Assembly (NCBI GenBank): GCA_032718475.1
Contig: JAUCBJ010007152.1
Location: forward strand, 1 to 64,000
Source of the DNA: Nemertoderma westbladi
Taxonomy: Eukaryota > Animalia > Xenacoelomorpha
DNA: 64,000 bases
Direction of reading: 5' to 3'
In this document: positions 4,457 through 50,040 of the stretch, in pieces
Position numbering within the stretch: the first letter of the stretch is position 1
Layout: every line of letters begins with the position of its first letter
Notes under the pieces: model-generated
Told to the model about the DNA's origin: nothing
The model's database searches: none
The model's input: only the letters and a program-made list of their open reading frames with translations
Position numbers and translations under genes: made by a program

Positions 4457-5020
4457 TTTAATTGTGTGTTTAGTTTAATTAATTTGTGTGCGACTGTTAT
4501 TAATTAATTAATTAAGAGTGCTTTCCAGGGCCATTGATTTGTTTTTACATTGTGGGGAGGGGGGGGGGGGGGGTGAATCGATTGGGAAATTGAGCTGAGG
4601 GCCTCCCATATACTGTATATCTATAATATAACTGTGAGCAGATTAGAACAAGTAAACCCAGTATGTTAATCAATATACATTTTATTACAAAAATAGAAAC
4701 TTCCTGTAATTCACCTGAGTTTCTGCGCTCGAAAATGATTAGAAATTCACGTTCTGGTGATAGTTACTTTATTAGTTCCGTTTTCGATGATTTTGGGTGT
4801 ATTTAATTAACTTGTATGCCGGACCCCGATGGCAGTATCCGAATTTCAGGTCTGTCAGTCGTAGTAGTGTAGAGTTGTCCTTGGGCACAACATGATTTAT
4901 TATAACCATTATGCTAAAGCTTACTCGCAAAGTCACTTGCCACTCGCTGCCTGCCCTGTACATTATTGACACCAATAACTTGTGAAATAAGTTGACTTCT
5001 AATGGTGCGGAAAGGCCTTA

Positions 5021-6924
5021 TATAGAATTATATTCCCTAAATGCCGTGAATTTTCAAAATTTTATTTTATTCGGATTAACTTTGTAAAAGATTGCTTTGA
5101 ATCCTCATTTGTATTTGTAATATCTATTGTACATCTATTGGTCAAGTGGTTCAGTAGCTCAGTCGGTAGAGCGTTGGAAATTATATGTGTAGTAGGTATT
5201 GAGTTCGAATCCTAGTAAGTGCGAATTATTTTTTGTGCAGAATTTCAACTCATTTAAATTAACCGCTACAAATTAATTGCATTTGTCTGTACCAATGAGA
5301 CTGTAGTTATTTGATTGTAACCAATGTCGTGCAAGTTATATATTAGCTGGACCAATAGCTATCTTTAAAAACCTGTTAGAACCTATAGAACAATCGAGAA
5401 TTTTCTCGATTGATTGCAGCACAAATTTGCTATAAAAGGGTGCGATTTGTTCATTAGTTATTATTCTCTCAGTTATTCAGTTATCTGATATTTGTTTATT
5501 CTGTCATTAGTTTTCAGATTACATTGTATTATAATTATATCTTCTGTAATAAAGTCAGAATTATCGCTAATCTGCTTTTCCTATCTGTTTTACCATGGAT
5601 TCACTACGGTGAACAAACTTAGGGACAGGATGGCCGGCTAGAGATCGGGCCGCAGCAATGAATGGGAACATCGGAGGAATGTAGACGAGAGACAACCCGC
5701 AATACCATCTAGAGTTATTCGCCCATCGCCTGAAAGGTTAGACAGCGTTCGATCCTTGCTACCTAAGTGTAAGACCAAAAGATCAAAAGGTAGACGTAGT
5801 GACACGCTGTAAGCCTAAAATTACATCATAGGGACTGTACTGTCTTGATTCAGGAAAAACCGCAGTAGACCTTCATATTCCTACGGGGGGAGGGAGAGAG
5901 CGCAGGCAGATACTAGTACGCAGATATGACGTAGGCACACCGGTACAAGGCATACACATTGGTTAGGGTGCAGCAAACTGTACGCTTAACTCTTGCTAAG
6001 TACAGGTGCGTCTGTGACTATTTGCCGTACAACGGTGTCCATTGCATTAGAACTTGTAGGCTAGGGGGGTTGCTGTGTTTTCACCTGAATTGGGATTGTA
6101 CCGTTCAGGCGGTAGGGCAGTTTACTGGTTTACACTAGGCGCAAATAAATTGAGGCTATCAGGGATATACTAACATCTACCGTGTCCCCGCCAACGCCCT
6201 AATAGGAAGTTACCCGGACTACCTGGGTGACTAAAATTCTAGATAGGAGCCAGGATAGCTATTAGTACCTGTACGCCTACAGTAGTAAACTAACACATCT
6301 CTTCTTAGTATCAGGGACCTGGTACCTAAAATTGCCGAATTCTGGGCGTAGTATTAACCTTATGCCTGAATTTGAGTCCTGGAAATACGCAAGAGGGGAA
6401 GGAACCTTATCATTCGTGAGTATTAGACCTACAAGTTACAAAATTAGAATATTCGTAAAATGCACACCGTACCCAGTAATTATATATGTGAAGGAGCAAA
6501 ACTGTTTTTGACCGTTCAGAATTAACACACGCGCGTTAGAAATTATTTACACCTCAAAATATATAAAATTAACTTTCGTCCTTACTGCACTTTGCCCGCT
6601 AGTTAGACATCTCCAAATATCTGCCTCTGTACCTAGCTAGCGTCCCTTTTGCCCAACCATATAAATCACACCGCGGCAAAGTATACGAGCCCCTTAGTCC
6701 GTCAGTGAGTCAGCCTGATTTTAGGATTCGCTGCGCGGGATTTTTGTTTTATCGAAGTTTGTCTGCTCGTAGACTGTTTTCTGCCTCACCGGTTATAAGA
6801 GATCGATACTGCAACATATTCGCTTACTTAGAGTTTACTGTTTTGGTGAGAAGGTCGGATTTATGATTTGATTCACAAACTTTACAGTAGGATATTGCAG
6901 GTATTGTTACTGTCTCTTCGAATA
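5021..6924 (+). repeat. 5' LTR (TATAGAA...TTCGAATA)
   Basis: Matches 19402-19767 plus 24077-25614. About 5 substitutions were spotted by eye. Confidence 0.95.
5148..5234 (+). ncRNA. tRNA-like Pol III cassette in the 5' LTR
   Basis: GGTTCAGTAGCTCAGTCGGTAGAGC (D-arm / A box), GAGTTCGAATCC (B box, 5201-5212) and a T6 run at 5229-5234. No acceptor stem. Confidence 0.65.
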
Positions 6925-7734
6925 GTAGGAATATGTTTTACTGAACTACGGTTCGGTAGGACTAAAGTTATTTGAAAATTTTGTATTTTGAGGTAAAAGT
7001 TTATATTTGATTAGCTAAGTGCTAATTTTTTGAAACAAAAATTTGATTTGAACCGCGTGTAAAATATTTTGGAATTGAATACCGGTGTTTAAAAGGGTTT
7101 AAATACCATATTGTACCGGTACAAAATTTTTCGTAAAAGTAAAACCTAACTCTTTTGTTTTTCAGGATTCAGAACTCATTTCTAGACTATAACGGGAGCA
7201 AGACCGTGTTTAGCAAGTTTGGGAGATAGATAACCCAACAACTTTGGTTGGGAAAATCGCGTTTCGTCCGCAACGTTAAAAACGGAAAGGTTCACGTCCG
7301 GTTTGTATCTGGGAATCTGTTTTTCTGGAGAATTATTGGAGTGGGTGAGTTCGAAAAGTTGCATAAATAAGTTAGGCATTACCGTATTAGTTAAAATTAT
7401 TGTGGGTTCCACTGTCTCAAGTATTTATGCATTCCGTATGATTTCTTTGTTCATTGCTGAATTAGTCCGTATTATTGTATTTAATTTACCTTTTGATAAC
7501 GCATATCGTTATCCGATTTATTTGTTATAAAATTGGCCGCTAGGCTAATTTTATTATATACTTATTCCGTGACATTTATTTGCTGTAAAATTGGCCGTTT
7601 AGGCTAATTTTATCCATCTGCTATAAAATCGGCCGGTAGGCTAATTTTATAAGACTGTAATTAGTACCGTTTAGATATAAATACGGTAAACTCGATACTT
7701 TGACACTCACTTTACTTGACTTACAACTACCGAA

Positions 7735-10700
7735 ATGAGTGACAAACAAGACTATACGAAAAACACACCTACCGACTATGACTCGTGTGACGGAGATAAG
7801 TCAGCAGCGGAAGAACAACAGGGGAAGACTCGCGAGCCTACCGAACCTACACCGTGTGCGTCACCAGTACATCCAACGGGAGTACCGGATGCCGTAGTAC
7901 GAGGCGACGGCAGGACCGAGGACTTTCTAACTGTTCCGCAACCTAGATACAGGGAAACGGACCTGGTAAGTTCAGCAGGAAGCACAGAAAGTGTGGTTAG
8001 AAGCGTCGGAGGTTACATGGCGCATATAACCAGGAGTATTGGAGAAGGCCAATGCGTATTAGACGAGTTGACCGCGCCGATGTCTCGATTCGAGTTCTAC
8101 ACCCTCCAGGTTAGAGTACAGAGTAAAGTATATAAGTCCGTAGATAATCTAGTTGGCCTACAAGATCTAGCTAGACAGAGACAGGACATGGATACTCAAC
8201 TTAGAATCCTCGAGAAACTAATGATCGCTAGAGAGAAACTGATTCAGTTTAAGTCGACGATTAGACAGATACAACAGGAACAAGCGGACCAGTTGTTAGG
8301 TGAGTCAGTTTCGGACGAATTATTACAGCCCGAGGAAGAACAGGAACTGTACCGACTGGATGGACAATTGAAACATCTGACGGACCACTTACGTATGTGC
8401 GGCGAGGATGTCGGAGATTGGGAAACCGTGCCGGAATATACGAGGGAAACTTCACCCGTACGAATCGAATCGGCACCGGGAATACTGAATCAATCACTGG
8501 TGAGTATTCGCAGCGAGATTAACGAGGTAAGCATGGTCACGTCAGAAGTTGCTCGACAACAGCAACAGTTCTACAGACAGCAACACGAGATGGAAGAACA
8601 AACTCAACTGCTAATGATACAAACAGCGGTAGAGGAAGAGAAAATACGTGTTGCGAATGTAGCGAGAATCTCTCATCTGCAGGAACAAGCCGAACTCGAA
8701 GCGGCCGAAATGGAAAGGTTAGAGTTGGACATTGCCCAACAAGCGGCAGCAGCCGAGTTAGCGCAACGAATGGCAACAGCCGAGTTAGAGCGACAAACGG
8801 CAGCGGCAGAGTTAGAGCGACAAACGGAAGCGGCAGAGTTAGAAAGAAAAAGGTTAGTTTCAGAAGCCAGAGTCGAGATGAAGACACGGCAAATAAAAGC
8901 CCAACAAGCGATACGACAAGCAGAGTTCGAGGCGCAACAACAACAAACGGAACAACGAGAAAAGGAAGTTAAACTTCGTTTCGAACTTGAGAAAAGGGCG
9001 AGAGAATTAGCGGAAACCAAGGAAAATCTGGATCTTCTAGCCCGTGATCGATCGATGAGATCTCGAGACGGACATGACTTGGACCAGATAGAGGTAAGAC
9101 ATCGCCAAATTCAGGAACGAAAGAAAGAAGGAAGCGTAGGAGCACCCGGACGGGAACGACAATTAGTAAAGGACTTGTGTCAACGATTCCCACAGGTAAC
9201 TCATATGTTTGCACCAGTTACGACTAAGGAACCTGTTTCGATTGCGGGTAGTAGTAACATTTCTCCTATCCATGGTGCGACGGAACACAGGTTTGTTATT
9301 CCGGATGAGTTTACACCGCCAAGAGCAACGTCGTCGCCCATTCCGAAAGTCAAGGTAAGTAACCCACCGATTACGGATCGTAGTAGTTTGTTGACTGGAC
9401 CTGCACTACTGACGACTAAACAGGTGAGTCCACCGTCGACACCTAAACCCGTTACATACTACGCTTACCCAATGACGTTTCTACCCACAAGGCCAGTTGT
9501 TTCAAATGCTGTCATTCGCCCACCGGTTCAGTTTACATCGCAATCTACGACTTCGAGGAAGACTTGTGAGCCTACCGAACAACGGAGACCAGTGGATACG
9601 CGACCGTTCAACCAATTTACATCGCAATCTACGACTTCGAGGAAGACTTGTGAGCCTACCGAACAACGGAGACCAGTGGATACGCGACCGTTCAACCAAT
9701 TTACATCGCAATCTACGACTTCGAGGAAGACTTGTGAGCCTACCGAACAACGGAGAACAGTGGATACGCGACCGTTCAACCAATTTACATCGCAATCTAC
9801 GACTTCGAGGAAGACTTGTGAGCCTACCGAACAACGGAGATCCGTGGACGATGTTCCGAAACGGAACGTTAGAATTCGTACGACGCAACGGACGCGAGCA
9901 CGTCGACCACCATATCCAGATGATAGTAGTACTTCGAGCGAATCGGATTACCCGAAACGCGAGGTATTTAGAACAGGGGCGGCCGATGAATACAAACGCG
10001 AGCGTTCAGACAACTCCTTTGCAGACAATCCTCCACAGAATACACCAACACAGAAGGCGTTACAACCAACGGACGCAATTAGTACACAACAGTTCGCCGA
10101 CATCCTGCGACCAGTTGTTAACAAGTTGGCTCAGATCGAGGAACGTCTGGAGGAAGGTTACACCGACAGTTCGAGAAATTCCGAATTCGAACACAATAGA
10201 CACCCGAAGGAACCACAAAGACCGGTACCTTCAAACCCCACATCGTATCAGGGAAAAGCGCCAAGAAGGGATATCAACAAGGTTACCAACCAAGGACGCG
10301 AAACTCTGAACGTTGCCGAGGAGATAGCGAAATTCGCAGCCAGACAGGGATTGCCGGTACAACAACCACCGAAGTTTTCCGGTAGCTCAAAACACTGGCA
10401 TACTTTCGTAGACTATATCGAATCCCAGATCGCCGTGTGCGCCTTTACATCACGGGAGAAGTTTAATTACCTGCTTCAAACGTTGTCAGGAGAACCTAAA
10501 CGTTTGGCGGAGACTTTCGTCGGTGTACCGGACGCTTTCGAACTAGCGTACGATCGTTTAACTTCGATATACGGAGGTACAGTTAGTATGGCCAGGTCAG
10601 TAATAGAGGAACTCTGTAAGGGAGGGGCTATCACTAAACCCGTCGACTTATTAAAACTGGCCGACGAGATAAAAAACGCTATCACTACTTTAAGATCCAT

Positions 10701-11169
10701 TGGACAACTTGATTACGGGAATACCCCTACAGTCCTATTAAAGATCATAGGACGACTCCACCATCGACTTCGTCGGGAGTGGAGGAAGGTCGAATACCAG
10801 CGGGAAGAGCGGGGAGGATTCTTAAAATTAGAAGATGTGTACCTTTTAATATCCAGGGAGGCAGTAGTAGAAACTAGATCTAACTACACCGACCAGCACA
10901 TCGTGGCAGAAGGAATCACACTGCCATCCTCCAACCGACAAAAACCCCAGACAACATCCACTAAGACGGCCACTTACGCCACACCGACGGAATCACGACA
11001 ATTCTCGGACGGTAGTAGGGTATCTGCGCCCATTGGGACAAAACAGACGAGACAACAACTTAGTACCGACTTCAGCGGCTGCCAATACTGCGAGCATCTA
11101 GGCAAGCGGTATATCGGTCACAAGTTACGAGGTTGTCGACAATTTCGCGAGTTGAACTCGGAAGAATGA
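7735..11169 (+). CDS. gag: BEL/Pao Gag: long coiled-coil N-terminus, capsid-like region, first zinc knuckle
   Basis: PPKFSG...W..F...EKFNYL..L.GEP...AYDRL..IYG and CQYC...H...C. Ends at an in-frame TGA that is continuous with pol. Confidence 0.9.
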   Translation: MSDKQDYTKNTPTDYDSCDGDKSAAEEQQGKTREPTEPTPCASPVHPTGVPDAVVRGDGRTEDFLTVPQPRYRETDLVSSAGSTESVVRSVGGYMAHITRSIGEGQCVLDELTAPMSRFEFYTLQVRVQSKVYKSVDNLVGLQDLARQRQDMDTQLRILEKLMIAREKLIQFKSTIRQIQQEQADQLLGESVSDELLQPEEEQELYRLDGQLKHLTDHLRMCGEDVGDWETVPEYTRETSPVRIESAPGILNQSLVSIRSEINEVSMVTSEVARQQQQFYRQQHEMEEQTQLLMIQTAVEEEKIRVANVARISHLQEQAELEAAEMERLELDIAQQAAAAELAQRMATAELERQTAAAELERQTEAAELERKRLVSEARVEMKTRQIKAQQAIRQAEFEAQQQQTEQREKEVKLRFELEKRARELAETKENLDLLARDRSMRSRDGHDLDQIEVRHRQIQERKKEGSVGAPGRERQLVKDLCQRFPQVTHMFAPVTTKEPVSIAGSSNISPIHGATEHRFVIPDEFTPPRATSSPIPKVKVSNPPITDRSSLLTGPALLTTKQVSPPSTPKPVTYYAYPMTFLPTRPVVSNAVIRPPVQFTSQSTTSRKTCEPTEQRRPVDTRPFNQFTSQSTTSRKTCEPTEQRRPVDTRPFNQFTSQSTTSRKTCEPTEQRRTVDTRPFNQFTSQSTTSRKTCEPTEQRRSVDDVPKRNVRIRTTQRTRARRPPYPDDSSTSSESDYPKREVFRTGAADEYKRERSDNSFADNPPQNTPTQKALQPTDAISTQQFADILRPVVNKLAQIEERLEEGYTDSSRNSEFEHNRHPKEPQRPVPSNPTSYQGKAPRRDINKVTNQGRETLNVAEEIAKFAARQGLPVQQPPKFSGSSKHWHTFVDYIESQIAVCAFTSREKFNYLLQTLSGEPKRLAETFVGVPDAFELAYDRLTSIYGGTVSMARSVIEELCKGGAITKPVDLLKLADEIKNAITTLRSIGQLDYGNTPTVLLKIIGRLHHRLRREWRKVEYQREERGGFLKLEDVYLLISREAVVETRSNYTDQHIVAEGITLPSSNRQKPQTTSTKTATYATPTESRQFSDGSRVSAPIGTKQTRQQLSTDFSGCQYCEHLGKRYIGHKLRGCRQFRELNSEE
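9529..9848 (+). repeat. 84-bp in-frame tandem repeat, about 4 copies, within gag
   Basis: QFTSQSTTSRKTCEPTEQRRPVDTRPFN repeated; period 84 (9557, 9641, 9725, 9809). Confidence 0.95.
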
Positions 11170-14100
11170 CGGCTGCAAATACGGCCATTGGACTCTTGTT
11201 GGCGGTGTACGCGACACGGACACGTCCGTAAAGATTGCCCAAATACCGACACTTGTCCATCCTGTGGACGCAACCATGACGGTCTGCTCCACACAGACAG
11301 CCACACGCCGACGAAACGCTTCGCCAGGGAACACCCGGAAGCAGCAGCGAGATGTGATGCGGCCTACCGAAAACGAGAATCGAAAACAACTCCAACCTTC
11401 GTGACCCATATTGAGGATTGCTTCTCAGAACAATCCGGATCGTCGGACGAAGAGTTAGAAGACGACGACGAATATTCCAATGGAGACGAACAACCGTCGA
11501 TCGCGCTTCTGACTACTGACCAACTGAAGGGATTCAGTGTAATTCCGATTAAGGTTACTGGCACAAAGGGGAGCAAAAGAATCTACGCGATTCTAGATTC
11601 AGCCTCATCTCACAGCTACGTGGACGAAAAGATAGCTGACGTAGTGACGGATCTTAAACAAGGTAAGTGCGTCAGTTATACAGTAAGTAGTATGCACGGA
11701 CAGCGTGCAATACCAGTGACACGAGTTAAGTTGGACTTAGACTCTCTTCTTCCAAAATCGCAGCACAGCGAGAGGGAGAGGTCTTTGTTGCCCTTTAAAG
11801 ATCTAACCTTTGCGGCTACGAAGGACTTTAGTAACCTACTAGGTCCAGTGCCGGAACAATCTCTAGAGGACCGTAAGTATTTCAGACACCTTGGTGTACC
11901 CGAATGTCCTGTCAATTATAGATCGGTAGCCATGCTGATCGGGACAGACCAATTCAACCTACATCAGGTGTGGGAAACCAGACCATCGGCAATTGTAGCG
12001 GGAAACGCATACGCCTGCAGAACGCCGATAGGGTGGTATACTCGAGCGCCTGTGCGCACACTAGACGTAAGTGACGAGGAAGACGATGTACAGAGTACAT
12101 GTAGTTTATTAACTACAAATTCAATTCATTCCTTTTCACACGACGTGAACCATACTACGCTACAGTCGACAAAACATGACAGACGTGTAACTAGTATGAT
12201 AAGTCACAAGGAGCAGCTAACCCACCAGGTGAGTTTAAAACTTGGGGAGAAGACGAGTCAGCTAGAGATTCCATCGACGACAGATGATAGGCTTGCGAGT
12301 CTACCTACCCCAATAACCTCAACAGTGCCCGTCGATATCGATGATGACGCGTTGAGAAATCATCAAATGGAACAAGCCGCTTTGGACAAAGAATTAACGG
12401 AGAAGACTATCAGGTGGTTAGAACAAGATACAGCTGAACCTGGTAGCTACGAACCTTGTATGTCGGAACAGGAGAAACAATCTCTGAAGATCATGGAAGA
12501 TACTATCCGCCAGACGAAAGACGGACATTATGAGGTAGGGATGTTATGGCGTAGCCAAAGTCCTAAACTTATAAACAACTATCCACTAGCCTTGAGACGT
12601 CTACACTCAATACGGCAACGTCTATTAAAGGACGAGAAGGCCCATCTGCAGTACAACACTCAGATGGAGACGTATTTGACTAAGGGATACGCTATCCAAA
12701 TGACGAACCCGGAGATAGTGACTGACCAAACATATTACTTGCCACATCACTATGTGAGACACCCCGACAAACCAGATAAAGTACGCGTAGTCAATGACTG
12801 TGCGGCTCTGTTTGAGGGAATGTCCCTCAATAGTGAGTTGATGGATGGACCAAACATGAATAATTATCTTATGGGGGTGATTATGCGCTTCCGTCAGCGT
12901 CAAGTAGCTTTTACTTGTGACGTTGAAGCGATGTTTCACCAAGTGAGAGCGTTAGAGCGAGACAGAGACAGTTTGCGGTTCCTCTGGTACCCGGAAGGAG
13001 ACTTAAGTCTACCACCGGCGACTTACCAAATGCAAGTTCGCGTTTTCGGTGCCAGAGACAGCCCAAATTGCACGATGTACGCCCTAAAGCAGGCCGCTAG
13101 GGATCAGAAACACCTGTATGACCCAGAGATAATTAAAATCGTAGAGCGTGACTTTTACGTTGACGACGGTTTACAGAGTTGCGACACAGTAGAACGTACT
13201 ACAACAGTAGCACATCAATTACGGGACTGCTTAGCGGGCGGAGGTTTTAACCTCACCAAATTCGCCTCAAACAGTGCCGAATTAGTAGACTCATTCGGGA
13301 CTACTGAGCGTGGAGGTGGTGACATAGACCTAGAGTTCGAACCACTACTGACGACTAAGGTGTTAGGGCTCTTTTGGGACCCAAACACAGACAACTTTCG
13401 AGTGAAAGTGAGACTGGACAGTCAAGAGAACACACTGACAAAGAGATCATGCTTGTCAAAGTTGAGCCGATTGTTCGATCCGTTAGGATTCATCAGTCCA
13501 GTGATACTGCAAGCCCGCATTTATATGCGCAGTATATGGAAGGATGGACTAACATGGGACGAGCCGATCTCATCAGACCAAGTAGACTTATGGAAGACCT
13601 GGGAGGCGGAATTATCTTCGCTAGAGGATTATTCCATACCCAGGGTTTACTTTCCATTGCAAAGTACATTTCCTGACAACTTGGAGCTACACTGTTTTTC
13701 TGACGCCAGTGACAACGGTTTTGGTGTGGCAGCGTACTTGCGCAGACAAGTAGAATCAGACGAGTTCGATGTTTCGCTCATTACTTCTAAGGCTAAGACC
13801 ATGCCTACTAAGTATATGACGACACCACGAGCCGAGCTACAAGCCGCAACCCTGTCAACCACCATCGTGAACCTCATACAGACAGAACTACAGTCGAGTT
13901 TACAGATATTTTATTGGACTGACGCGACGTTGGTTTTATTTTACATAAACAACGACACACTCGAATTCAAGACATTCGTAGCTAACCGTCGCGCGGAAAT
14001 TCTAGACCGTTCAATAAAAGAGGATTGGCGACATTGTCCCGGACCACAAAACCCAGCTGATATTGCGTCGCGAGGAATGATGCCTGAGGAATTCTGTAAA

Positions 14101-16560
14101 CCGGAGAACAAAGAATTTTGGCAACACGGACCCCAATTCTTGCAGAAATCGACACAAGATTGGCCTCCGTTATACGACAACAAATCTAACACTATCCCTA
14201 AGGACGCCGAAATCAAGAAACCAAAAAAGGGGAAGACAAAGAAAAAGACAACGGCGGCAAAACTCAAGAAAAAACCAAAGGCGAAATGGAAAGATATAAC
14301 TTCAAAGGTCAAGAGAGGAAGACTTGCGAGCCTTTCTACACCAGACATATCGCCAGACGGTCAACCAGACACGTTACTAGACGGTCAACCAGACGTTTTG
14401 CCAGACATGTCACGAAATGTTCCACCAGACGCTAGTAACACACTGACAAACAGTAAAGCCGCAGTTTCTCTATTGGAGCGGCCTTCTATTGACAAACAAC
14501 CAGATACGTTACCAGACGTATCGCCAGACACATTACTAGACAGTCGACTAGACATTTTGTCAGAAACATCACAAAATGTTCTACCGGACATTAGTAATGT
14601 ATCGACTAACAGTAAAGCCGCAGTTTCCCTATTGGAGCGGCCTTGTATTGACAAACTACCAATTTTGACACACTTGAGCAACCATAAGCACGGTGAAACC
14701 TCATGTATTACAGATGTGGGTAGTACCTACGCTAATGTAAATACAGGTGTTACTTTGCGCTCAAGAGACATACCGAACTTGCAACCTATGGTGAGACCTG
14801 GGATTAATGTCGGCAGGAAAATAAGTTTACCGAAACCTGCTGACCCCATAGAGTTCAAACCACCATTAACGATCGACTTACAAAGTACTGACGATCAAGG
14901 TAAGAAGACGAAGAAGGACAAATTACTTGTAGACCCGGACGGATCAACAGTCAACAAGGGAATACCTACCGGCGGACCCGTGGGCCCTTCTAGTAATTCA
15001 AAACCTTCCAAAATCTCCATTGACTTACCTGATGACGTCACAAATACTCATGTCGACCGTATTGTAAACTTAACAGATTCTTGGACAAGCGCTTGCCGAA
15101 AATTAGCGTGGATTGTACGTTTTGTACAATACGTTAAAGGCAAACGCGACTTTACGCGTCGACTTACATTGACTGAGATTGACAGGTGTGAGATTAAATT
15201 AATTCGCCATTATCAACTGCGATATTTCGCGCGCGAATTCACATCTATAAATCAAGGTCAACCAATCAAGTCGTCACCAATACTGAATTGGAGTCCGATA
15301 ATTTATAATGGCTTAATTTGTCATAAATCTCGGCTTCAAAACATTGACTTTAACACAAACTTTAGGTACCCAATAATAATACCGCAACACCACGAACTAC
15401 AACGTGCAATGATACTGGATGCACATCTACATCTGAAACACGCTGGAAGACACCACTGTCTTTCCTACTTACGTACTAGATTTGTATTAATTAGACCCAG
15501 TAAAGCATTAAGTTCAGTGACACGTACGTGTATTATTTGTAAAAAGGTACATTCTAGAATAGGTACCCAAGAAATGAGTGAACTACCACAAGCACGACTT
15601 CAAGCATTCAGACCACCTTTTACAGAGACTGGAATTGATTGCTTTGGTCCCATACATACGAAACGTGGACGTATACTAGTAAAACGCTGGGGACTGATTT
15701 TCACATGTATGTCCAGTAGGGCAGTTCATATTGAACGTGTGATGGATCTTTCCACCAACGCGTTTATACTAGCACTGCGGCGATTTATCGCTAGACGCGG
15801 ACTAGTAAAATGCTTGTACTCAGACCAAGGGACAAACTTTGTTGGTGCTCGGAATGAGCTTGCTAGAGCCTTTAAGAAATTAGATCACGATCAAATCTCG
15901 AACGAACTACAACCTCACAAGATTGTTTGGAAGTTCAACCCTCCAGATAGTCCTTGGAGAGGCGGAGTCTGGGAGAGACTGATTAGATCTATAAAGACAG
16001 CTATGGCAAAAGTCATTCCAGTAAACCACATACTGACAGACGACCAACTGACAACATTGTTTGTTGAAATCGAGGCAATACTAAATACTAGACCAATAGT
16101 ATTAGTACCCGATGACAAACAATCTCAGTTCGCTTTGACACCGGCACACCTGCTAATGCAGGCACCGACCACATTAATGCCTATTTCTATTCCAATAGAA
16201 AGCGACAGCTACGGTAGAAAAGCGTGGAAAATCACGCAACTACTGGCTAACAAATTCTGGGAAATATGGCAAAACCATTATTTGCCCTCTATTTCTGCCA
16301 GAACAACTTGGTACAATAACACCCGCGCATTAAAGACGGGAGATCACGTGCTGTTAGCGGAAGTGAATCTAAAAAGACGCTTCTGGATAACAGGTGTAAT
16401 TTTAGCCACACATCCATCTATGGATGGAGTGACAAGAACTGTGACGGTACGGACAATTGACGGTCGTACAGTAGACAGACCGACTCAACGTCTCGTACTT
16501 CTTGAAGAGACTCGTAACGAGTCTGGAGACTACAAATCTCCACCTAATACAAGTAAATAA
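11170..16560 (+). CDS. pol: BEL/Pao polyprotein: remaining Gag knuckles, aspartic protease, RT, RNase H, integrase
   Basis: CWRC..H..C and CPSC..H..LLH; protease ILDSAS; RT YYLPHH..KVRVV..FYVDD; RNase H FSDAS..PRAEL..WTDA..NPADIASRG; integrase GIDCFGP..SDQGTNF..GGVWERL; C-terminal FWEIW..YLP. Confidence 0.95.
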   Translation, partial: RLQIRPLDSCWRCTRHGHVRKDCPNTDTCPSCGRNHDGLLHTDSHTPTKRFAREHPEAAARCDAAYRKRESKTTPTFVTHIEDCFSEQSGSSDEELEDDDEYSNGDEQPSIALLTTDQLKGFSVIPIKVTGTKGSKRIYAILDSASSHSYVDEKIADVVTDLKQGKCVSYTVSSMHGQRAIPVTRVKLDLDSLLPKSQHSERERSLLPFKDLTFAATKDFSNLLGPVPEQSLEDRKYFRHLGVPECPVNYRSVAMLIGTDQFNLHQVWETRPSAIVAGNAYACRTPIGWYTRAPVRTLDVSDEEDDVQSTCSLLTTNSIHSFSHDVNHTTLQSTKHDRRVTSMISHKEQLTHQVSLKLGEKTSQLEIPSTTDDRLASLPTPITSTVPVDIDDDALRNHQMEQAALDKELTEKTIRWLEQDTAEPGSYEPCMSEQEKQSLKIMEDTIRQTKDGHYEVGMLWRSQSPKLINNYPLALRRLHSIRQRLLKDEKAHLQYNTQMETYLTKGYAIQMTNPEIVTDQTYYLPHHYVRHPDKPDKVRVVNDCAALFEGMSLNSELMDGPNMNNYLMGVIMRFRQRQVAFTCDVEAMFHQVRALERDRDSLRFLWYPEGDLSLPPATYQMQVRVFGARDSPNCTMYALKQAARDQKHLYDPEIIKIVERDFYVDDGLQSCDTVERTTTVAHQLRDCLAGGGFNLTKFASNSAELVDSFGTTERGGGDIDLEFEPLLTTKVLGLFWDPNTDNFRVKVRLDSQENTLTKRSCLSKLSRLFDPLGFISPVILQARIYMRSIWKDGLTWDEPISSDQVDLWKTWEAELSSLEDYSIPRVYFPLQSTFPDNLELHCFSDASDNGFGVAAYLRRQVESDEFDVSLITSKAKTMPTKYMTTPRAELQAATLSTTIVNLIQTELQSSLQIFYWTDATLVLFYINNDTLEFKTFVANRRAEILDRSIKEDWRHCPGPQNPADIASRGMMPEEFCKPENKEFWQHGPQFLQKSTQDWPPLYDNKSNTIPKDAEIKKPKKGKTKKKTTAAKLKKKPKAKWKDITSKVKRGRLASLSTPDISPDGQPDTLLDGQPDVLPDMSRNVPPDASNTLTNSKAAVSLLERPSIDKQPDTLPDVSPDTLLDSRLDILSETSQNVLPDISNVSTNSKAAVSLLERPCIDKLPILTHLSNHKHGETSCITDVGSTYANVNTGVTLRSRDIPNLQPMVRPGINVGRKISLPKPADPIEFKPPLTIDLQSTDDQGKKTKKDKLLVDPDGSTVNKGIPTGGPVGPSSNSKPSKISIDLPDDVTNTHVDRIVNLTDSWTSACRKLAWIVRFVQYVKGKRDFTRRLTLTEIDRCEIKLIRHYQLRYFAREFTSINQGQPIKSSPILNWSPIIYNGLICHKSRLQNIDFNTNFRYPIIIPQHHELQRAMILDAHLHLKHAGRHHCLSYLRTRFVLIRPSKALSSVTRTCIICKKVHSRIGTQEMSELPQARLQAFRPPFTETGIDCFGPIHTKRGRILVKRWGLIFTCMSSRAVHIERVMDLSTNAFILALRRFIARRGLVKCLYSDQGTNFVGARNELARAFKKLDHDQISNELQPHKIVWKFNPPDSPWRGGVWERLIRSIKTAMAKVIPVNHILTDDQLTTLFVEIEAILNTRPIVLVPDDKQSQFALTPAHLLMQAPTTLMPISIPIESDSYGRKAWKITQLLANKFWEIWQNHYLPSISARTTWYNNTRALKTGDHVLLAEVNLKRRFWITGVILATHPSMDGVTRTVTVRTIDGRTVDRPTQRLVLLEETRNESGDYKSPPNTSK

Positions 16561-17222
16561 TTAGGAGTTTACAAATAGATTTCCACGTACCTGTACACCG
16601 TAGTAAGGACAGCGGTAGAATTCCATTGTCTTTATATGTGAACATTGAGGGTAGTACCCTTATGTGTCACATAGGAGCGGGATTTGTAGGTATAAGAAAT
16701 GGAATTCTACTTGGAACTCACAATATTGAGACATTTTCGAAATTTTAGACAATCCATTTGGATTTGAAAAATTTTTAAAAATTTTCTCCAGTGAATAGAT
16801 TTCAGGGTACAGTCGGGTGGAACTTAAAATTAGAGAAACAAGAGAGGAAGACTTGCGAGCCTTTCTTAAAAATTTTAATTAAATTTTACACGGTCTTGTT
16901 TCAATAAGTTACGTCAAAATAGACTCCCCTATATTTATTACTAATTCTTGATTGCTTATTTTCTGATAATAGTTTGGGATCAAAAAGTGAGTATTTTAAA
17001 CTCACAGCCAGTTTAGCCCAAATTCGTTTTTATTTCGGCAAAAATTTTTAGATAAGAAGCAGCGTGTCATTAAAGAAACCCTAGATCTTAGGCTATGGGT
17101 AGGAGGTTAGAGCGTTGTCGAAGCCCAAAAGGCAGACGAAACTCTCACGTCTCCTCACAACTAACCACAAACTCTGTTGTATTCCCTCTAGTAGTAATGA
17201 TTATGTAACTACACCTCTAATT

Positions 17223-18922
17223 ATGGAGAAAGGGATACAAGGAGAGCCGAGATGGGGATATGATATCCAAGAGGAGGCAGCAGCGCCATTCGAAAGATTT
17301 GGAGCCAAGGACTACACTATATTTGGTATAAAGGAATTATCAGAAAGTACAGCGAAGCTCGCAAAGACAGCAATGCCTTTACTCGAGCAGGATTTAGCAT
17401 ATTTCGAGACGTGTATCTTCGCTGTGCGGGATCTCTTATCGAAAGACCATCTATGTTTACATTGTTACCCTATGAAGGAGAACGTATCGTGGAGATTACG
17501 GATGAATCACAGCAGACGCGCGCGCCTATCGGTCACCTTGGTGATGAATTCGAAGTAACTACTACGATCGCCGACGATCCTTTAGAGGAACTTCTTGAGA
17601 TAGAAAGGAACCTCCCGAAGAAATCTCAGACGGAGATTCGACAACTTGAAGCAACAGATGCTATAGTTTGTATACAACCTTCAGAAACCTACCAACCCAT
17701 AGACCCAGACGATTACGATTATAGTATGGGAGGAAGCGCTCGACCGATTGGAGATCTTATATACGAACGAGTGTGGTACCCTGCCAATACGATGTGTAGT
17801 AAATGTGGCGTCGCTGGACATCATATGACAAAGTGCAGTGGAAAGCACATTACTACGACTCAGCTAATCTGTGGATGGTGTGGGGATCAAGGGTCTCATA
17901 CCTTTTATACTTGCTGGAGATTTATGGCTCAATGTACTTATTGCAATATAAAAGGGCATCGAGCATCTGAATGCCAACTAAGAGACATACCTTATGAACA
18001 CGAATCTGTAAAACTCGTGAGAAATTATTTGATGAGTGGGAAGATTTAGCCGACGAGCATGTATCGGCACAAAGAAGACGGTTTCCGATGAGAGCGCATC
18101 TTGGATTTTGGGCGGTAAATCCCCAGACGATATGTCGGAAGGATACATCTCCGCTATGCCCCAATATGACGAACTTATCGAGGTTGTCGATATTTTGCCC
18201 CACGACAGCGGATTCCGAGTGGTGCGCGAGTATCTGTTACAAATTCACCCGGATAACAAAACACGTGGAATTTTCAGAAAGTCGTTAATCGGATTACGTA
18301 TGGTGAATTCGATCGTTTCCGAACTGAAAAGCGGAATAAAGGAGCTTGGTTAACCGTCGCATGGGCGTACCGAGCCGCGTTTTACCACAAACGTATACGA
18401 GCGAGCGTATTCGAGGAAGAGGAGGTCCTAGAGGCGACAAATATACCAGCCACTCCGGTTGCGCCGTCTGCACGTCACCCTCGGGAGGACGGGCAGGGTA
18501 GGATCATACGGGTCCAGAAAGTGGGCCAACAATTAAAGAAAATTATTGATGTAGAAGAACGCAAGGGAGTTGAGCCGACCATTCGAGTTACTCGGGATAC
18601 GGTATCACTTCCAAGAGAACCAGTAGGAGGATCGGGACATACACCAGCTGATCAACAGGGGGCGCAAGCTACTCTTGGGTCTGCGTCGTCCGCTTCTCGC
18701 GCGTTCCCAGAAGTTCTACCAACTGTAGTGACAACTGATCGGTCACGAGGAATCGGTCGAGGTTTTGGGATGCCAAATAGACGAATTTGCGAAGAAATGG
18801 TCGCACCGTCTCTCAACGTCCAAACGAAACCAGTGACTCGCCCCACGAGTCCCATATCGCGAGCAAAGTCACCTGTGCGCAGTTTTCGAGGACGCGGCAG
18901 GGCTCGATCCACTAAGCGATAA
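17223..18922 (+). CDS. Accessory ORF3 region of the BEL element, three CCHC-type zinc knuckles, split over several frames
   Basis: Overlapping sense ORFs 17115-17558, 17411-18049 (CSKCGVAGHHMTKC, CGWCGDQGSHTFYTC, CTYCNIKGHRASEC), 18036-18353 and 18257-18922 (RG-rich basic tail). Confidence 0.6.
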
Positions 18923-19004
18923 AAGGGAGGGCAAGGGTGGACGGAAGACTCGTGAGCCTTTCTTGTGAATTTGTGATTTATTTGAATTTATATTTATATT
19001 TGTG

Positions 19005-19080
19005 ATTATTCCGAACTTATGCAATTTATATTATTCCGAACTTATGCAATTTATATTGTTCCGAATATTATGCAATTTAC
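19005..19080. repeat. About 25-bp tandem repeat x3 in the BEL 3' UTR
   Basis: ATTATTCCGAACTTATGCAATTTAT repeated. Confidence 0.8.
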
Positions 19081-19528
19081 ATTTTATAGGCAGTATTACA
19101 GTGAAACAGAAATTTTCATTTATTTGTATTTGTAATTGTTTGAATTTATGCAATATTGAGATGCAATAGATTTATATTGGTGAATTTAATTTAGATTTAT
19201 ATTGTACTTACTTAGTAAAGCCTTAAATACGTAAAGTTTGAATTTGTAATTATTTTGTATCGAATCATTACGTAGAAAGGAAGTATTGTTTGAAATTTAA
19301 TTGTAAATATGTAAGTACGCCCTAAGTATTCTATAGTTTGATTGATTATTGGTGAAAACCGTATATTTTATGCACGATAATATCCTGTTTTCATGGAGCG
19401 GTATAGAATTATATTCCCTAAATGCCGTGAATTTTCAAAATTTTATTTTATTCGGATTAACTTTGTAAAAGATTGCTTTGAATCCTCATTTGTATTTGTA
19501 ATATCTATTGTACATCTATTGGTCAAGT

Positions 19529-19615
19529 GGTTCAGTAGCTCAGTCGGTAGAGCGTTGGAAATTATATGTGTAGTAGGTATTGAGTTCGAATCCTAGTAAG
19601 TGCGAATTGTTTTTT
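19529..19615 (+). ncRNA. tRNA-like Pol III cassette, 3' LTR copy
   Basis: Same A box, B box and T-run as 5148-5234. Confidence 0.65.
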
Positions 19616-20074
19616 GTGCAGAATTTCAACTCATTTAAATTAACCGCTACAAATTAATTGCATTTGTCTGTACCAATGAGACTGTAGTTATTTGATTGTA
19701 ACCAATGTCGTGCAAGTTATATATTAGCTGGACCAATAGCTATCTTTAAAAACCTGTTAGAACCTATTTATTTATTTATTTATTTCCTTTCCATTATCGG
19801 GCACTAATGACCCATGCTACTGTACGTACATTTTTAATATACTAAACGAAACACATAGCACAAAAATTAATTACGGTTGGACCCTACAATCTATAATTAA
19901 ATTCACAGTGACCGACAATCGACCAAAGAAAAAAAAAAAAAAATGAAACCAATAGAACTTCATTATACACTATCATTACAAAGTGAAAAATGCAAAAAAA
20001 CACAAAAAAAAACAAAAAATTTACGAGGGTGGATATTTATGGCCCAGTATTGCGAATATATTAATTATACAATA

Positions 20075-22918
20075 TTACACAGATAGAAGTACTTCCCAAC
20101 GGTCCCGTAAAGTCGAGGACGTACAAATATTAAAACAAACTGAAAGTAAATCGTTACTAGAAGACGCTACTCGCCTTGCGAGCGAGCCTGCCGCAACCCT
20201 ACATATTGCTACAAAAGTATTAACTCGATTATTTACAAAAATTGTATCCGCGTCATCACAGCGACTATACTTAAAAAGTAACCTGAACGCAGTATTGTAG
20301 GCTACACGGACCTTACGCAGTTCCTCAACTCTAAATATACTCCACAATGAAGTACAATAAAGACTGTAACAATAAGTTTTAAATAGCGCTCGTTTCACTG
20401 GCAATGAGCAACCGCCAAAGAAACGTGCTAACTGGTTACCACGGCGATAAAGAGAACGCTTAGCAACCATCATATCAGACTCATCTGACAGTGAACTACT
20501 AAGTATGTGTCCTAGATAAGTAAGTTCTTTTACGCAAGGTATTATTTTACCACATAAATAAACATCCCCAGATCTACCTAGTTTACATGTGTGAAAATAT
20601 AAACACTTAGATTTACCGGGGTTATACAGAATATCGTGATCGATACCATACTTTTCACAGATTCGTAATAGCACTCTCAGACCCTGAATACTAGGGGCCA
20701 AGACACAAAGGTCGTCGGCGTAAAGTAAGTTATTTAACCTACTGGACCCAACTTTACATCCTACAGAAGCACGATTTAATAATTTACTCAAATCATTAAG
20801 ATAAATGTTGAACAAAAGAGGAGACAACAACGAGCCTTGTCGTACAGAGTTACCGACACGAAAACCAGCTGAGGTAGCATTACCCCAGGTTACAGTTAGC
20901 ACTTGGTTAGTGTACCAGTAGAATAAAATACGTACTATACACACGGGTACTTTGAGATTTAATAATTTCTGAAAAAGTTTGTAATAATTAACCCGATCGA
21001 ACGCTTTAGAGGCGTCTAAGAATGCCACATAAACAGGCGAGTCACGGGAGATATATAAATGAACTGTTTCTTTAAGAACATATATACAAGTCTCGGTACC
21101 CAGTCCTGGACTAAAACCAAATTGATTGTCGGTCAATTTCGTTTTTCCCTTAATTCTACCAAATATACAAGATTCAAACACTTTAGCACAAATATTAGAT
21201 ATATTTATAGGCCTATAATTATCCTTATCAGACAAAGAGGCATTCTTATTCTTTACAATAGGAAACAAAGCACAAACCATAAATGAACTAGGAAGATATC
21301 CATGCGTTAATAATGCATTAAACAATAACGATAAAATAACACAGAGCTTATCACCGGCATACATAAAATGTTCCGGACAGACGCCATCGGGCCCGGCGGT
21401 CTTCCCGCCATTCAGCCCCTCAATAGCCGATTTTACTTCGCGAGGGGAAACATGAGTTTTCCCCTCACCATCCCAATTTTCAAAGGTTTTCTTTAGAGAC
21501 GAGATATCTTTCTCGTTGACGTCAACTGAGTTAAAAATACGTTCATAATTACCACGAAACAGATCAGCAATATCCGCGTCAGAATGAGCGTCACCAACTG
21601 AAGACGCTCTAGGGATTCTAGAATTAGTTATTTTTTGGGTTTGACGCCAAAAGTCCTTATTAGAAGCGAGAAATGAATCGGCCAATTTATCATTCCGAAT
21701 CTCCTTCTCTCGGGCTCTACAGTTACGTAGAGCCAATTTATATTGAGCTGACGTTTTCCTTTTTACTTCCCAAAGCAACCCCGTTTTAGGGTTTCCATTT
21801 TCCCGCCAAATACGGAAGGCCTCACGAGAGGCCTCACGTTTTTCTTTCACAGATTCATTCCAACCGGGGACCACTGGTTTGTTAGAGCCCCCCGTTTTAG
21901 AATCCGGAAAACATTCCGAACCAGAATTTTTCAAAATACGCATAACATTATCATGTAGCAACTGAAATTGTAACAAATGTGCCTCGTTGCAACAATGTAC
22001 ATCAGAACAAATAATTGCTTCGTGGGGCAATATAATATCAGAAAATAAAACATTAGTACGATCGGCATATGCACGTTTCATGTTATTATCTACTTTGTCC
22101 CAGAAGGGGGCGCTATAATTCTTACGTGAGTCATTATTCAAATTATTAGTTCCATTACAAAAATTATCACACTGCGAAAAAATAAATTTGAATGAAATAG
22201 GCATATGATCAAAATCTGACACCTCATACAGTATCTTCATATCCAAAATTAACTTATGAAATTCGCAACTCGATATCACGTGGTCGAGCCAAGACACGGT
22301 ACCGTGTACATGGCTCGTGTATGTGAACGAGTTACTAGGTAACAAATGAGAGTCAGAAATATACAGCTTTTCATTGTCGCAAAATTTCATAAGTTCCTTG
22401 CCAAAGCTTCGGCGCGGGTCAGCGTTAAAGTCTCCCAATATACAGTTACTAGTAAAAGTATTAAAATCAATGATCGAACCACATTTACCCAATAATTCAG
22501 AGAAATGGTCCATATTATCGTCCGATTGGCACGGCATATAAACATTGAGAAAAAGGCTCTGTGGGCCATCCGGGGCGCCAACCCGCAGACCCATAATACG
22601 CTCCACATTGAACTCCTGAAAATTAATATAAGGAGCCAATGGCTTGCGCCATAAAGCCGCCAAACCGCCATGTGGCCTACCCACCCTCGGGCCGAGGGAC
22701 AGGTCGACTGAGGAGACTCCCCTACCAAAAAAACTATCGTGGATAGAATTCAGTTTATGCAGATCTTGCTTTACCATCCAAGTTTCCTGTAAAAAAACAA
22801 TATCATGACTGTCTAGCAACTTAGTAACGTGGGGCAGGTTATTATCAATGCCATTACAGTTAAATGTACATATACGGAGTGAACTAGATATGGGTTCCAT
22901 CACGCTTTCTGGGACCAT
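20075..22918 (-). CDS. LINE ORF2, APE endonuclease + reverse transcriptase, intact
   Basis: TFNCNG, FLQETW, GDFNA, WLDH, SDFDH; YRPI, QFGF, FLDASKAFDRV, RQGSLLSP, YADD. Confidence 0.95.
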   Translation of the reverse strand: MVPESVMEPISSSLRICTFNCNGIDNNLPHVTKLLDSHDIVFLQETWMVKQDLHKLNSIHDSFFGRGVSSVDLSLGPRVGRPHGGLAALWRKPLAPYINFQEFNVERIMGLRVGAPDGPQSLFLNVYMPCQSDDNMDHFSELLGKCGSIIDFNTFTSNCILGDFNADPRRSFGKELMKFCDNEKLYISDSHLLPSNSFTYTSHVHGTVSWLDHVISSCEFHKLILDMKILYEVSDFDHMPISFKFIFSQCDNFCNGTNNLNNDSRKNYSAPFWDKVDNNMKRAYADRTNVLFSDIILPHEAIICSDVHCCNEAHLLQFQLLHDNVMRILKNSGSECFPDSKTGGSNKPVVPGWNESVKEKREASREAFRIWRENGNPKTGLLWEVKRKTSAQYKLALRNCRAREKEIRNDKLADSFLASNKDFWRQTQKITNSRIPRASSVGDAHSDADIADLFRGNYERIFNSVDVNEKDISSLKKTFENWDGEGKTHVSPREVKSAIEGLNGGKTAGPDGVCPEHFMYAGDKLCVILSLLFNALLTHGYLPSSFMVCALFPIVKNKNASLSDKDNYRPINISNICAKVFESCIFGRIKGKTKLTDNQFGFSPGLGTETCIYVLKETVHLYISRDSPVYVAFLDASKAFDRVNYYKLFQKLLNLKVPVCIVRILFYWYTNQVLTVTWGNATSAGFRVGNSVRQGSLLSPLLFNIYLNDLSKLLNRASVGCKVGSSRLNNLLYADDLCVLAPSIQGLRVLLRICEKYGIDHDILYNPGKSKCLYFHTCKLGRSGDVYLCGKIIPCVKELTYLGHILSSSLSDESDMMVAKRSLYRRGNQLARFFGGCSLPVKRALFKTYCYSLYCTSLWSIFRVEELRKVRVAYNTAFRLLFKYSRCDDADTIFVNNRVNTFVAICRVAAGSLARRVASSSNDLLSVCFNICTSSTLRDRWEVLLSV

Positions 22919-38580: not shown

Positions 38581-38610
38581 GCACTAACGCCGGGTCAATG
38601 TGACCATATA

Positions 38611-46281: not shown

Positions 46282-46419
46282 AAGGTAAAAATTAAACATT
46301 ATTATTTTTCAATCGATCTATCGGTAGTTAGGGAAAACTAACCTCGTTTGAATAAGCATGACTCTCACAGGCTGACTGCGCGCCTAGCTGACAGTAGCTG
46401 CGAGGCTGACTGTGTGACT

Positions 46420-48776: not shown

Positions 48777-48778
48777 AC

Positions 48779-50038: not shown

Positions 50039-50040
50039 TA

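What the first reader, a model, noticed from the sequence alone, without database searches (positions are those of the whole stretch)
7823..18963. One conserved RNA hairpin recurs about every 2-2.5 kb along the BEL retrotransposon
Seen: a 20-nt motif GGAAGACT(C/T)G(C/T)GAGCCT(AC/TT)C at 7823, 9557/9641/9725/9809 (gag repeat), 14317, 16846 and 18943, plus a variant GATAGGCTTGCGAGTCTACC at 12286. The 14310 and 16839 copies share 28 identical nt although one is coding and the other is not. All fold as a stem closing a YGYG loop, and the variants keep pairing (G-U wobbles; TAGG/TCTA vs AAGA/CCTT). The core CTYGYGAG is near-palindromic. Coding copies sit only in dispensable linkers: Gag N-terminus, Gag repeat, PR-RT linker and RH-IN insertion. 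Inference: this is a selected, periodically distributed cis signal on the genomic RNA (packaging, dimerisation, export, or a binding site for Gag or ORF3). I know of no description of this for BEL/Pao elements.
Basis: partly seen in the sequence, partly recalled or inferred. Interest (0 to 1): 0.85.

Follow-up and report, generated by a model that had tools for sequence, protein, structure and literature searches.

The report
Evenly spaced palindrome lattice in retrotransposon
A young animal BEL/Pao retrotransposon carries one 20-base near-palindrome at six evenly spaced places about 2.2 kb apart, inside and between its genes; it is not predicted to fold as the proposed RNA hairpin and is more likely a row of DNA docking sites for a paired protein, probably the element's own extra gene product, whose job is untested.

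Summary
The motif is real: nine copies at six independent sites (7823, 9557-9828 x4, 12286, 14317, 16846, 18943), with none in the LTRs or elsewhere in 64 kb (0.02 expected). Coding copies use two reading frames and lie only in linkers. Gaps of 1.9-2.6 kb are more even than chance (P about 0.002-0.007, post hoc). It was absent from 13 distant BEL loci; no sister family was found. The RNA-hairpin reading is not supported: 8 of 9 copies have an A·C mismatch in the stem, pairing probability in context is 0.13 or less, and covariation does not exceed shuffles. The 'compensatory' 12286 copy reads better as an inverted copy. The pattern fits two GRWAGRCT half-sites around YGYG, like a dimer's DNA operator. 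The element has a spliced accessory gene with three zinc knuckles and no homolog found. Best reading (0.45): a lattice of DNA sites for an element-encoded dimer that keeps the long body transcribable, VANC-like. Main rival (0.33): an RNA element read by that protein, Rev/CERV-like. No binding or function is shown. In passing: the element appears to self-prime like Tf1.

The parts
5021..6924 (+). 5' LTR (1,904 bp; TAT...ATA termini; 5-bp target duplication CCTTA); no motif copy
5874..5884 (+). 11 nt exactly complementary to the 11 nt after the LTR; candidate self-primer and transcript start (inferred)
   Evidence: 0.0006 expected by chance
6925..6935 (+). primer-binding-site position; not tRNA-type (no TGG), complementary to 5874-5884
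7345..17191 (+). 9.8-kb GT..AG intron (donor GTGAGT; branch point CTAAC and pyrimidine tract before AG); contains sites S1-S5
   Evidence: one contig joins across it in 1 of 4 runs; site sequences
7735..11169 (+). gag part of gag-pol (DUF1759); a stop codon between the first and second Gag knuckles splits gag-pol in this copy
7823..7842 (.). motif site S1 (centre CGCG), gag N-terminal linker, read as K-T-R-E-P-T
9557..9828 (.). motif site S2: four copies (9557, 9641, 9725, 9809; centre TGTG) in an 84-bp tandem repeat (9529-9848) in gag
11170..16560 (+). pol part: protease, RT, RNase H (Peptidase_A17), integrase (Integrase_H2C2, DUF5641)
12286..12305 (.). motif site S3, arms swapped (likely an inverted copy), PR-RT linker, read as D-R-L-A-S-L
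14317..14336 (.). motif site S4 (centre TGCG), RH-IN linker, read as G-R-L-A-S-L
16846..16865 (.). motif site S5, non-coding, between pol and the accessory gene; 28 nt identical to S4
17223..18922 (+). accessory gene, in pieces in this copy: N-terminal helix, acidic stretch, three zinc knuckles (about 17800-17980), unknown domain, Arg/Gly/Ser-rich tail; candidate reader of the motif
18943..18962 (.). motif site S6 (centre CGTG), 20 nt after the accessory gene's last stop; other family copies carry the motif at further 3' UTR places (about 19100 and 19170)
   Evidence: tables 5c, 7
19402..25614 (+). 3' LTR, 5 differences in 1,904 bp from the 5' LTR, interrupted by a minus-strand LINE (about 19768-24070)

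Best explanation
The 20-bp motif sits at six evenly spaced sites along the element's interior and is likely a two-fold symmetric double-stranded DNA site (two GRWAGRCT half-sites around YGYG), probably bound by a dimer of the element's own accessory protein, which would keep the 12-kb body open for full-length transcription. SHOWN: the sites, their spacing, their place in linkers and non-coding DNA, their independence from reading frame, their restriction to this element among the sequences tested, and a spliced zinc-knuckle accessory gene. Steps 4 and 5 rest on analogy to VANC/VANDAL only.
For: Every site has one AGACT half and one AGGCT half, and the arms vary only within R/W alphabets. S3 is 2 arm changes from the other sites when inverted and 4-6 when read forward (3 vs 5 over all 20 nt), so orientation appears free. 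Variable stem positions do not keep pairing (7 of 40 cells unpaired; covariation at shuffle level). The sense-strand hairpin is not predicted in context, and Rfam gives no match at E up to 1. Sites are held in two frames with unrelated flanks. Spacing is even, and stays even if the element's DNA ends are added (CV 0.147). The motif is absent from 13 of 13 distant BEL loci (best 12.5 bits). No dispersed motif above chance was found in 9 of 9 control coding spans or in the window's LINE, gypsy or Polinton regions. Across family copies the only substitution at 1% or more inside S5 stays within YGYG. Copy-number change by tandem repeats parallels VANDAL motifs (PMC5735166, passages).
Against: No binding or chromatin data exist. 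The only recognisable domain in the accessory protein is the CCHC knuckle, which usually binds single-stranded nucleic acid (own knowledge), and no DNA-binding fold was found. The centre is YGYG on the sense strand at 6 of 6 sites and never CA, a strand bias that a symmetric DNA site does not predict (only about 3-4 independent events). Five of 6 sites share one orientation. No site lies in the 1.9-kb LTR promoter. Family variants show no CpG excess (4 of 35 transitions among the 40 rows shown, against 23% of sites), so DNA methylation may not be the silencing opposed. The flanks of S5 are as invariant as the motif, so selection on the motif alone was not isolated. Only one family is known.
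Confidence: 0.45

Rival explanations
1. The motif is an RNA element on the genomic transcript, either a weak protein-stabilised hairpin with a tolerated A·C pair or a G·U-tolerant self-complementary word. The zinc-knuckle, Arg-rich accessory protein made from the spliced RNA would read it and license export or packaging of the 14.7-kb unspliced RNA (Rev/Rex/CERV-like). This is.
For: The accessory gene is expressed through a GT..AG splice and has knuckles and an RGRGR tail. S1-S5 lie in the retained intron. The centre YGYG stays self-complementary with G·U on the sense strand, and the one S5 variant stays within it. From the putative transcript start at 5874 the first gap is 1,949 nt, which fits the ruler. 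S3 RNA is predicted to pair with the other sites at -25 to -30 kcal/mol. CERV of Cer1 is a precedent for a spliced accessory export factor in an LTR element (PMC10309623, passages).
Against: No stable or shared fold across sites; no covariation; the stem sequence is conserved rather than the pairing; the A·C pair is never repaired although one change would do it; S3 reads as inverted. The intron covers about four-fifths of the interior, so 5 of 6 sites inside it is expected.
Confidence: 0.33
2. The motif is a DNA site for a host factor that the element has captured, for example a BEN-domain protein reading the CTCGCGAG core, with the arms as extra context.
For: The S1 core CTCGCGAG matches the CGCG motif of BANP (listing and abstracts of PMC10206803 and PMC11472053; the full motif TCTCGCGAGA is recalled and was my search term).
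Against: Only 1 of 6 sites keeps CGCG, while the outer arm positions 1, 4, 5, 16, 17 and 20 are invariant. No site occurs in the roughly 51 kb of the window outside the element's interior.
Confidence: 0.1
3. The motif is a neutral by-product: a quasi-palindrome that promotes template switching and is copied into tolerant linkers without any reader.
For: Local tandem expansion in gag; variable 3' UTR copies; sites occur only where insertions are tolerated.
Against: Even spacing remains significant when placement is limited to permissive regions (P 0.003-0.007). Exactly the same 20 nt, with almost no flank, were copied at least five times. A perfect palindrome would be the better template-switch substrate, but none of 6 sites is perfect.
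Confidence: 0.07
4. The sites are internal plus-strand priming or pausing signals that help reverse-transcribe an unusually long genome (like a central PPT).
For: Purine-rich 5' side at S2, S4 and S5; even spacing.
Against: No likeness to the purine run before the 3' LTR; S3 has no purine tract; the dyad is unexplained.
Confidence: 0.05

Closest known systems
VANC anti-silencing proteins and their motifs in Arabidopsis VANDAL DNA transposons (PMC5735166, passages; PMC6719617, passages)
   Same: An element-specific short motif is repeated through the element, gained and lost by tandem repeats, alongside an element-encoded accessory gene.
   Different: VANC motifs are 9-bp, asymmetric, dense, same-orientation arrays in non-coding DNA of a plant MULE. 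Here it is a 20-bp dyad, sparse and evenly spaced, written into coding linkers of an animal LTR retrotransposon. The accessory protein has zinc knuckles and no VANC-type domain, and binding is not shown.
CERV of C. elegans Cer1 (PMC10309623, passages); HIV Rev/RRE (mentioned there)
   Same: An LTR element with an accessory protein from a spliced mRNA, encoded where env would be, and a long retained intron.
   Different: Cer1 is a different LTR lineage (Ty3/gypsy, recalled). In the CERV paper my searches for 'cis-acting', 'response element' and 'stem-loop' gave 0 hits. The RRE is one large structured RNA, not dispersed 20-mers.
Dispersed packaging signals of ssRNA viruses (PMC6281560, abstract listing only)
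   Same: Many dispersed copies of a signal along a genome.
   Different: Those are stem-loops with shared loop words and variable stems (recalled). Here the arm sequence is fixed and folding is weak.
BEL/Pao (Belpaoviridae) LTR retrotransposons (PMC3118150, passages)
   Same: DUF1759 Gag with three knuckles, PR-RT-RH-IN order, Peptidase_A17, DUF5641, 5-bp target duplication.
   Different: 16.3 kb with 1.9-kb LTRs, TA..TA termini, no tRNA-type PBS but an 11-nt self-primer complement, a non-env knuckle accessory gene, and the motif lattice. The nearest proteins are only about 43% identical over the RT-RH region (up to 49% on short fragments).

Membership tests
BEL/Pao LTR retrotransposon | DUF1759 Gag, Peptidase_A17 and DUF5641 domains in gag-PR-RT-RH-IN order | tested here: met
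BEL/Pao LTR retrotransposon | Paired LTRs with a 5-bp target-site duplication | tested here: met
   (CCTTA on both sides; 99.7% identity)
BEL/Pao LTR retrotransposon | TG..CA termini and tRNA-type PBS (usual, recalled; not strictly defining) | tested here: not met
   TA..TA termini; PBS complementary to LTR 5874-5884
Conserved RNA hairpin family | Stable shared fold on the sense strand in context | tested here: not met
Conserved RNA hairpin family | Covariation above shuffles | tested here: not met
   (5 distinct rows only; low power)
Conserved RNA hairpin family | Match to a described Rfam family | tested here: not met
   0 matches at E up to 1 in 5000-19800
VANC/VANDAL anti-silencing system | Element-specific motif enriched in the element and rare elsewhere | tested here: met
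   (window and 13 distant BEL loci; no whole genome held)
VANC/VANDAL anti-silencing system | Short asymmetric motif in dense same-orientation non-coding arrays | tested here: not met
   20-bp dyad; 4 of 6 sites coding; one likely inverted
VANC/VANDAL anti-silencing system | VANC-type protein domain | tested here: not met
   only zinc-knuckle hits; no homolog beyond generic matches among 1.84 billion representatives
VANC/VANDAL anti-silencing system | Encoded protein binds the motif and removes silencing marks in trans | not testable with these tools
   needs EMSA/ChIP and chromatin data
Rev/Rex/CERV-type export system | Accessory protein made from a spliced RNA | tested here: met
   GT..AG joint 7344/17192 in one contig of 1 of 4 runs; canonical splice signals
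Rev/Rex/CERV-type export system | Structured RNA response element bound by that protein | tested here: inconclusive
   no stable fold predicted; binding not testable
Tf1-type self-priming element | 10 nt or more of the 5' LTR complementary to the sequence 0-5 nt after it (criterion of PMC6317226, methods passage) | tested here: met
   11 nt at offset 0
Tf1-type self-priming element | Transcript 5' end lies at the complementary stretch | not testable with these tools
   only contigs were available

The most novel reading that the evidence does not exclude
An animal LTR retrotransposon encodes its own sequence-specific zinc-knuckle factor from a spliced RNA and has written a ruler-like lattice of that factor's 20-bp operator through its coding linkers, one every 2.2 kb or so, to license full-length transcription and export against host silencing. 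This would be a VANC-like counter-defence in an animal retroelement, in a BEL/Pao lineage that also self-primes.
Probability: 0.25. Interest if true: 0.85.

Novelty: new variant of a known kind. Interest (0 to 1): 0.62.

Why it matters
A 2019 review (PMC6719617, passages) lists only three TE-encoded anti-silencing mechanisms, all from plants, and none against piRNA or KRAB-ZFP pathways. An evenly spaced lattice of a 20-bp element-specific site in a young, very high-copy animal retrotransposon, with a candidate reader encoded next to it, gives a directly testable protein-site pair. The spacing would also measure the range over which a silencing, termination or RNA-surveillance pathway must be countered. 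If the RNA rival is right, it would instead be a dispersed, ruler-like response element, unlike the single RRE-type elements known for retroelements. My literature searches (open-access library only) found no description of either for BEL/Pao.

Tried and rejected
No whole genome is held, so genome-wide motif counts and full-length sister copies were not available.

Searches for sister families found none close. Pol RT-RH region: best hits 43% identical among long proteins and up to 49% on short fragments. Viral contigs: 0 loci by pattern and 0 by protein. Genome contigs: 0 by single protein and 13 distant BEL loci at 34-41% by alignment. Metagenome contigs: 1 match to the 21-mer, a lone hit in gene-dense 54% GC DNA with no other likeness to the window, taken as chance.

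Motif-encoded hexapeptides occur once each in 5 of 128 proteins held at that point (120 Pol homologs and 8 weak accessory-piece hits; 216,693 residues), none repeated; taken as chance. After masking the motif, no second dispersed motif stood above triplet-shuffle level.

Accessory protein: 8 weak generic hits; Atlas hits only to CCHC proteins below 0.9 or none; single-sequence models were low-confidence (pLDDT 52 and 61); fold search was empty.

Host taxon was not identified from the LINE. No RNA holder was listed. Contig depth along the element was not used. ARAGORN found no tRNA gene in the LTR.

The supplements of PMC3118150 gave 0 hits for six motif words, but only 2.0 million characters are held, so most of its 7,861 element sequences were probably not seen; a clade assignment was not made.

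By eye from recalled consensus sequences (no call), I rejected p53, nuclear-receptor, SMAD and U1/5' splice-site readings because none explains the dyad. A MITE or insertion footprint was rejected because no target duplication is visible in the flanks. Methyl-CpG decay as the cause of YGYG is not supported. No covariance model was built, because five distinct 20-mers cannot train one.
Full report
SETTING. The finding lies in a BEL/Pao LTR retrotransposon. Its LTRs are 5021-6924 and 19402-25614, the latter interrupted by a minus-strand LINE at about 19768-24070. The LTRs differ at 5 of 1,904 positions and are flanked by a CCTTA target duplication, so the insertion is young. Gag-pol carries DUF1759, Peptidase_A17, Integrase_H2C2 and DUF5641. 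In this copy a stop codon between the first and second Gag knuckles splits it. Contigs of four public runs cover the interior in 29-30 of 30 bins, with thousands of records in two of them, which points to a large family. No whole genome is held. The nearest Pol proteins are about 43% identical over the RT-RH region, and those with names come from marine invertebrates; short fragments reach 49%.

THE OBSERVATION. The pattern GGAAGACTYGYGAGCCTWYC matches at 7823, 9557, 9641, 9725, 9809, 14317, 16846 and 18943 with no mismatch, and at 12286 on the minus strand with two. Chance gives 0.02 matches. A symmetric half-site matrix built from these sites scores all nine at 30.4-34.9 bits; the best other place in 64 kb scores 8.0, and nothing scores in the LTRs. 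The four gag copies are one event, an 84-bp tandem repeat, so there are six independent sites, S1-S6. Flanks are unrelated beyond 0-7 nt, and S4 and S5 share 28 nt. Gag copies are read as K-T-x-E-P-T and pol copies as x-R-L-A-S-L, so protein selection cannot explain the shared nucleotides. All coding copies lie outside recognised domains. With the gag array as one site the gaps are 1860, 2603, 2031, 2529 and 2097 nt (CV 0.146). Random placement does as well in 0.16% of trials over the whole interior and in 0.3-0.5% when limited to regions outside conserved domains (0.4-0.7% for the minimum gap). This test is post hoc and I drew the domain limits by eye.

IS IT FAMILY-SPECIFIC? An unbiased search for 18-mers at three or more dispersed places returns this motif as the top hit, with 6 sites. 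It finds none in the LTR, LINE or gypsy region and only 3-site words in the Polinton region. In 13 distant BEL loci (34-41% identity) the best matrix score is 12.5 bits. The coding spans of 9 of those 13 gave at most one 3-site word (3 of 9), the level seen in 3 of 6 triplet shuffles. The other 4 were run whole and gave 0, 0, 0 and 1 such word. So the lattice is not a general BEL/Pao feature. No sister family was available to test whether close relatives share it.

HAIRPIN OR DYAD? On the sense strand pair 6-15 is A·C in 8 of 9 copies and pair 3-18 is A·A in 5 of 9. Isolated energies are -0.4 (S1, S2), -2.0 (S4-S6) and -4.2 kcal/mol (S3). With 40 nt of flank the stem pairs have probability 0.13 or less at all six sites, and in isolation the antisense strand folds better at 5 of 6. 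In 60-nt folds only S3 forms the proposed stem, with z-scores from +1.96 to -1.75. On the five distinct sequences 82.5% of cells pair against 83.3% in shuffles, and one pair has a two-sided change against 1.8 expected (low power). Rfam has no match. Read as half-sites, all arms fit GRWAGRCT and every site has one AGACT and one AGGCT half. That is the anatomy of an operator for a two-fold symmetric protein (inference from established dimer-DNA recognition).

Against a purely DNA reading, the centre is YGYG on the sense strand at 6 of 6 sites and never CA. The only substitution at 1% or more inside S5 among family contigs turns TGCG into CGCG. This keeps G·U-type self-complementarity in RNA, although it rests on few events. 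It is not explained by methyl-CpG decay: 4 of 35 transitions among the 40 variant rows shown (of 1,056) are in CpG-type context, against 23% of sites, and the element's interior coding regions have CpG observed/expected of 1.05-1.26.

FAMILY VARIATION. The 121 nt around S5 show two substitutions at 1% or more, one of them at 5% or more. About 8 would be expected from the 818 variable places that run X1 shows over 12,401 nt (Poisson P 0.003). The whole block is conserved, flanks included, so this does not isolate the motif, and a short target may miss divergent contigs. Joints and loose ends show the motif at further 3' UTR places in other copies (near 19100 and 19170), all in sense orientation (45 joints and 909 loose ends were not shown). 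Short contigs cannot tell whether these are extra or replacement sites.

THE CANDIDATE READER. One contig in run X4 joins 7344 to 17192 across a GT..AG interval. The donor is GTGAGT and the acceptor has CTAAC and a pyrimidine tract. The second exon leads to an accessory gene at 17223-18922. It is in pieces in this copy, with frame breaks near 17,460, 18,020, 18,130 and 18,260, and other copies differ from this one at three of these places. The pieces encode a predicted 34-residue helix, an acidic stretch, three zinc knuckles, an unknown domain and an Arg/Gly/Ser-rich tail. No true homolog was found among 1.84 billion representatives (8 weak hits) or in the Atlas. Knuckles usually bind single-stranded nucleic acid (own knowledge), which is the strongest argument for the RNA rival. 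No DNA-binding fold was identified.

MECHANISM. I commit to a DNA docking lattice for an element-encoded dimer (0.45). Short duplications seed sites in tolerant linkers, and selection keeps those that close a gap. Each bound site would protect about 1.1-1.3 kb on either side from silencing or premature termination, so that the long unspliced RNA is made. A hand-over of the knuckle protein from DNA to the nascent RNA would reconcile the two readings, but that is speculation. The spacing alone does not decide between DNA and RNA: it stays even with the element's DNA ends added (CV 0.147) and with the putative RNA start added (first gap 1,949 nt, CV 0.143). Rivals are an RNA response element of Rev/CERV type (0.33), a host factor such as a BEN-domain protein on the CGCG core (0.10), a neutral template-switch product (0.07) and internal priming sites (0.05).

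COMPARISON WITH WHAT IS KNOWN. [quoted passage not shown] It is not a member: motif shape, placement and protein domain all differ. The spliced accessory gene in the env position resembles CERV of Cer1, which is needed for export of genomic RNA (PMC10309623, passages). A 2019 review knows TE-encoded anti-silencing only from plants (PMC6719617, passages). A 2026 preprint (10.64898/2026.08.24.746577, abstract and outline only) reports sequence-specific activation by transposases in DNA transposons. Passages of PMC3118150 and PMC6238403 on BEL/Pao mention env as the extra gene (the former) and no internal motif or self-priming (term searches). The supplements of PMC3118150 were only partly held and could contain relatives. 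Earlier AI notes of this scan report periodic palindrome lattices in fungal Ty3/gypsy elements (e1-7124770, e1-9505451). They are untested leads, not support, and my DNA-site reading was recorded before I saw them.

VERDICT. Novelty: new variant of a known kind. Interest 0.62, held down by a single family, no sister-family test and no binding evidence, and held up by a strong, unexplained, directly testable pattern in an element that is also unusual in its termini and priming.

Noticed in passing
window 6925-6935 and 5874-5884: No tRNA-type PBS. The 11 nt after the 5' LTR are exactly complementary to an Inr-like stretch inside the LTR (0.0006 expected), with AATAAA at 6144 downstream. This meets the published self-priming criterion (PMC6317226). 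My one search and term searches in two BEL/Pao surveys showed no self-priming BEL/Pao element.
   Followed up: partly
window 5021-5023, 6922-6924, 19402-19404, 25612-25614: LTR termini are TAT...ATA instead of TG...CA, bounded by a CCTTA target duplication.
   Followed up: yes
window 7345-17191: A 9.8-kb GT..AG intron joins the leader to the accessory gene; seen in one contig of 1 of 4 runs.
   Followed up: partly
window 17223-18922: Non-env accessory gene with three zinc knuckles and an Arg-rich tail; no homolog found; in pieces in this copy.
   Followed up: partly
window 5136-5225 (and the 3' LTR copy): tRNA-like A-box and B-box stretch inside U3, perhaps a SINE remnant or Pol III insulator; ARAGORN does not call it a tRNA.
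   Followed up: partly
window 16790-16910: The whole non-coding block around S5 is much less variable among family copies than the element average.
   Followed up: partly
window 14340-14657: A 159-bp duplication (79% identical) in the RH-IN linker starts just after motif S4.
   Followed up: no
window 19768-24070: A young LINE (endonuclease, RT, weak RRM in ORF1) is inserted in the 3' LTR; nearest protein 49% identical.
   Followed up: partly
window about 39400-57300: Polinton/Maverick-like region with integrase and packaging-ATPase-like ORFs and long inverted repeats at 38606-39338 / 56751-57294.
   Followed up: no
window 61940-62850: A 21-bp satellite in two head-to-head oriented blocks.
   Followed up: no
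L002-L014: BEL/Pao pol genes sit in 13 contigs of 12 prokaryotic MAG records, most likely host contamination.
   Followed up: no
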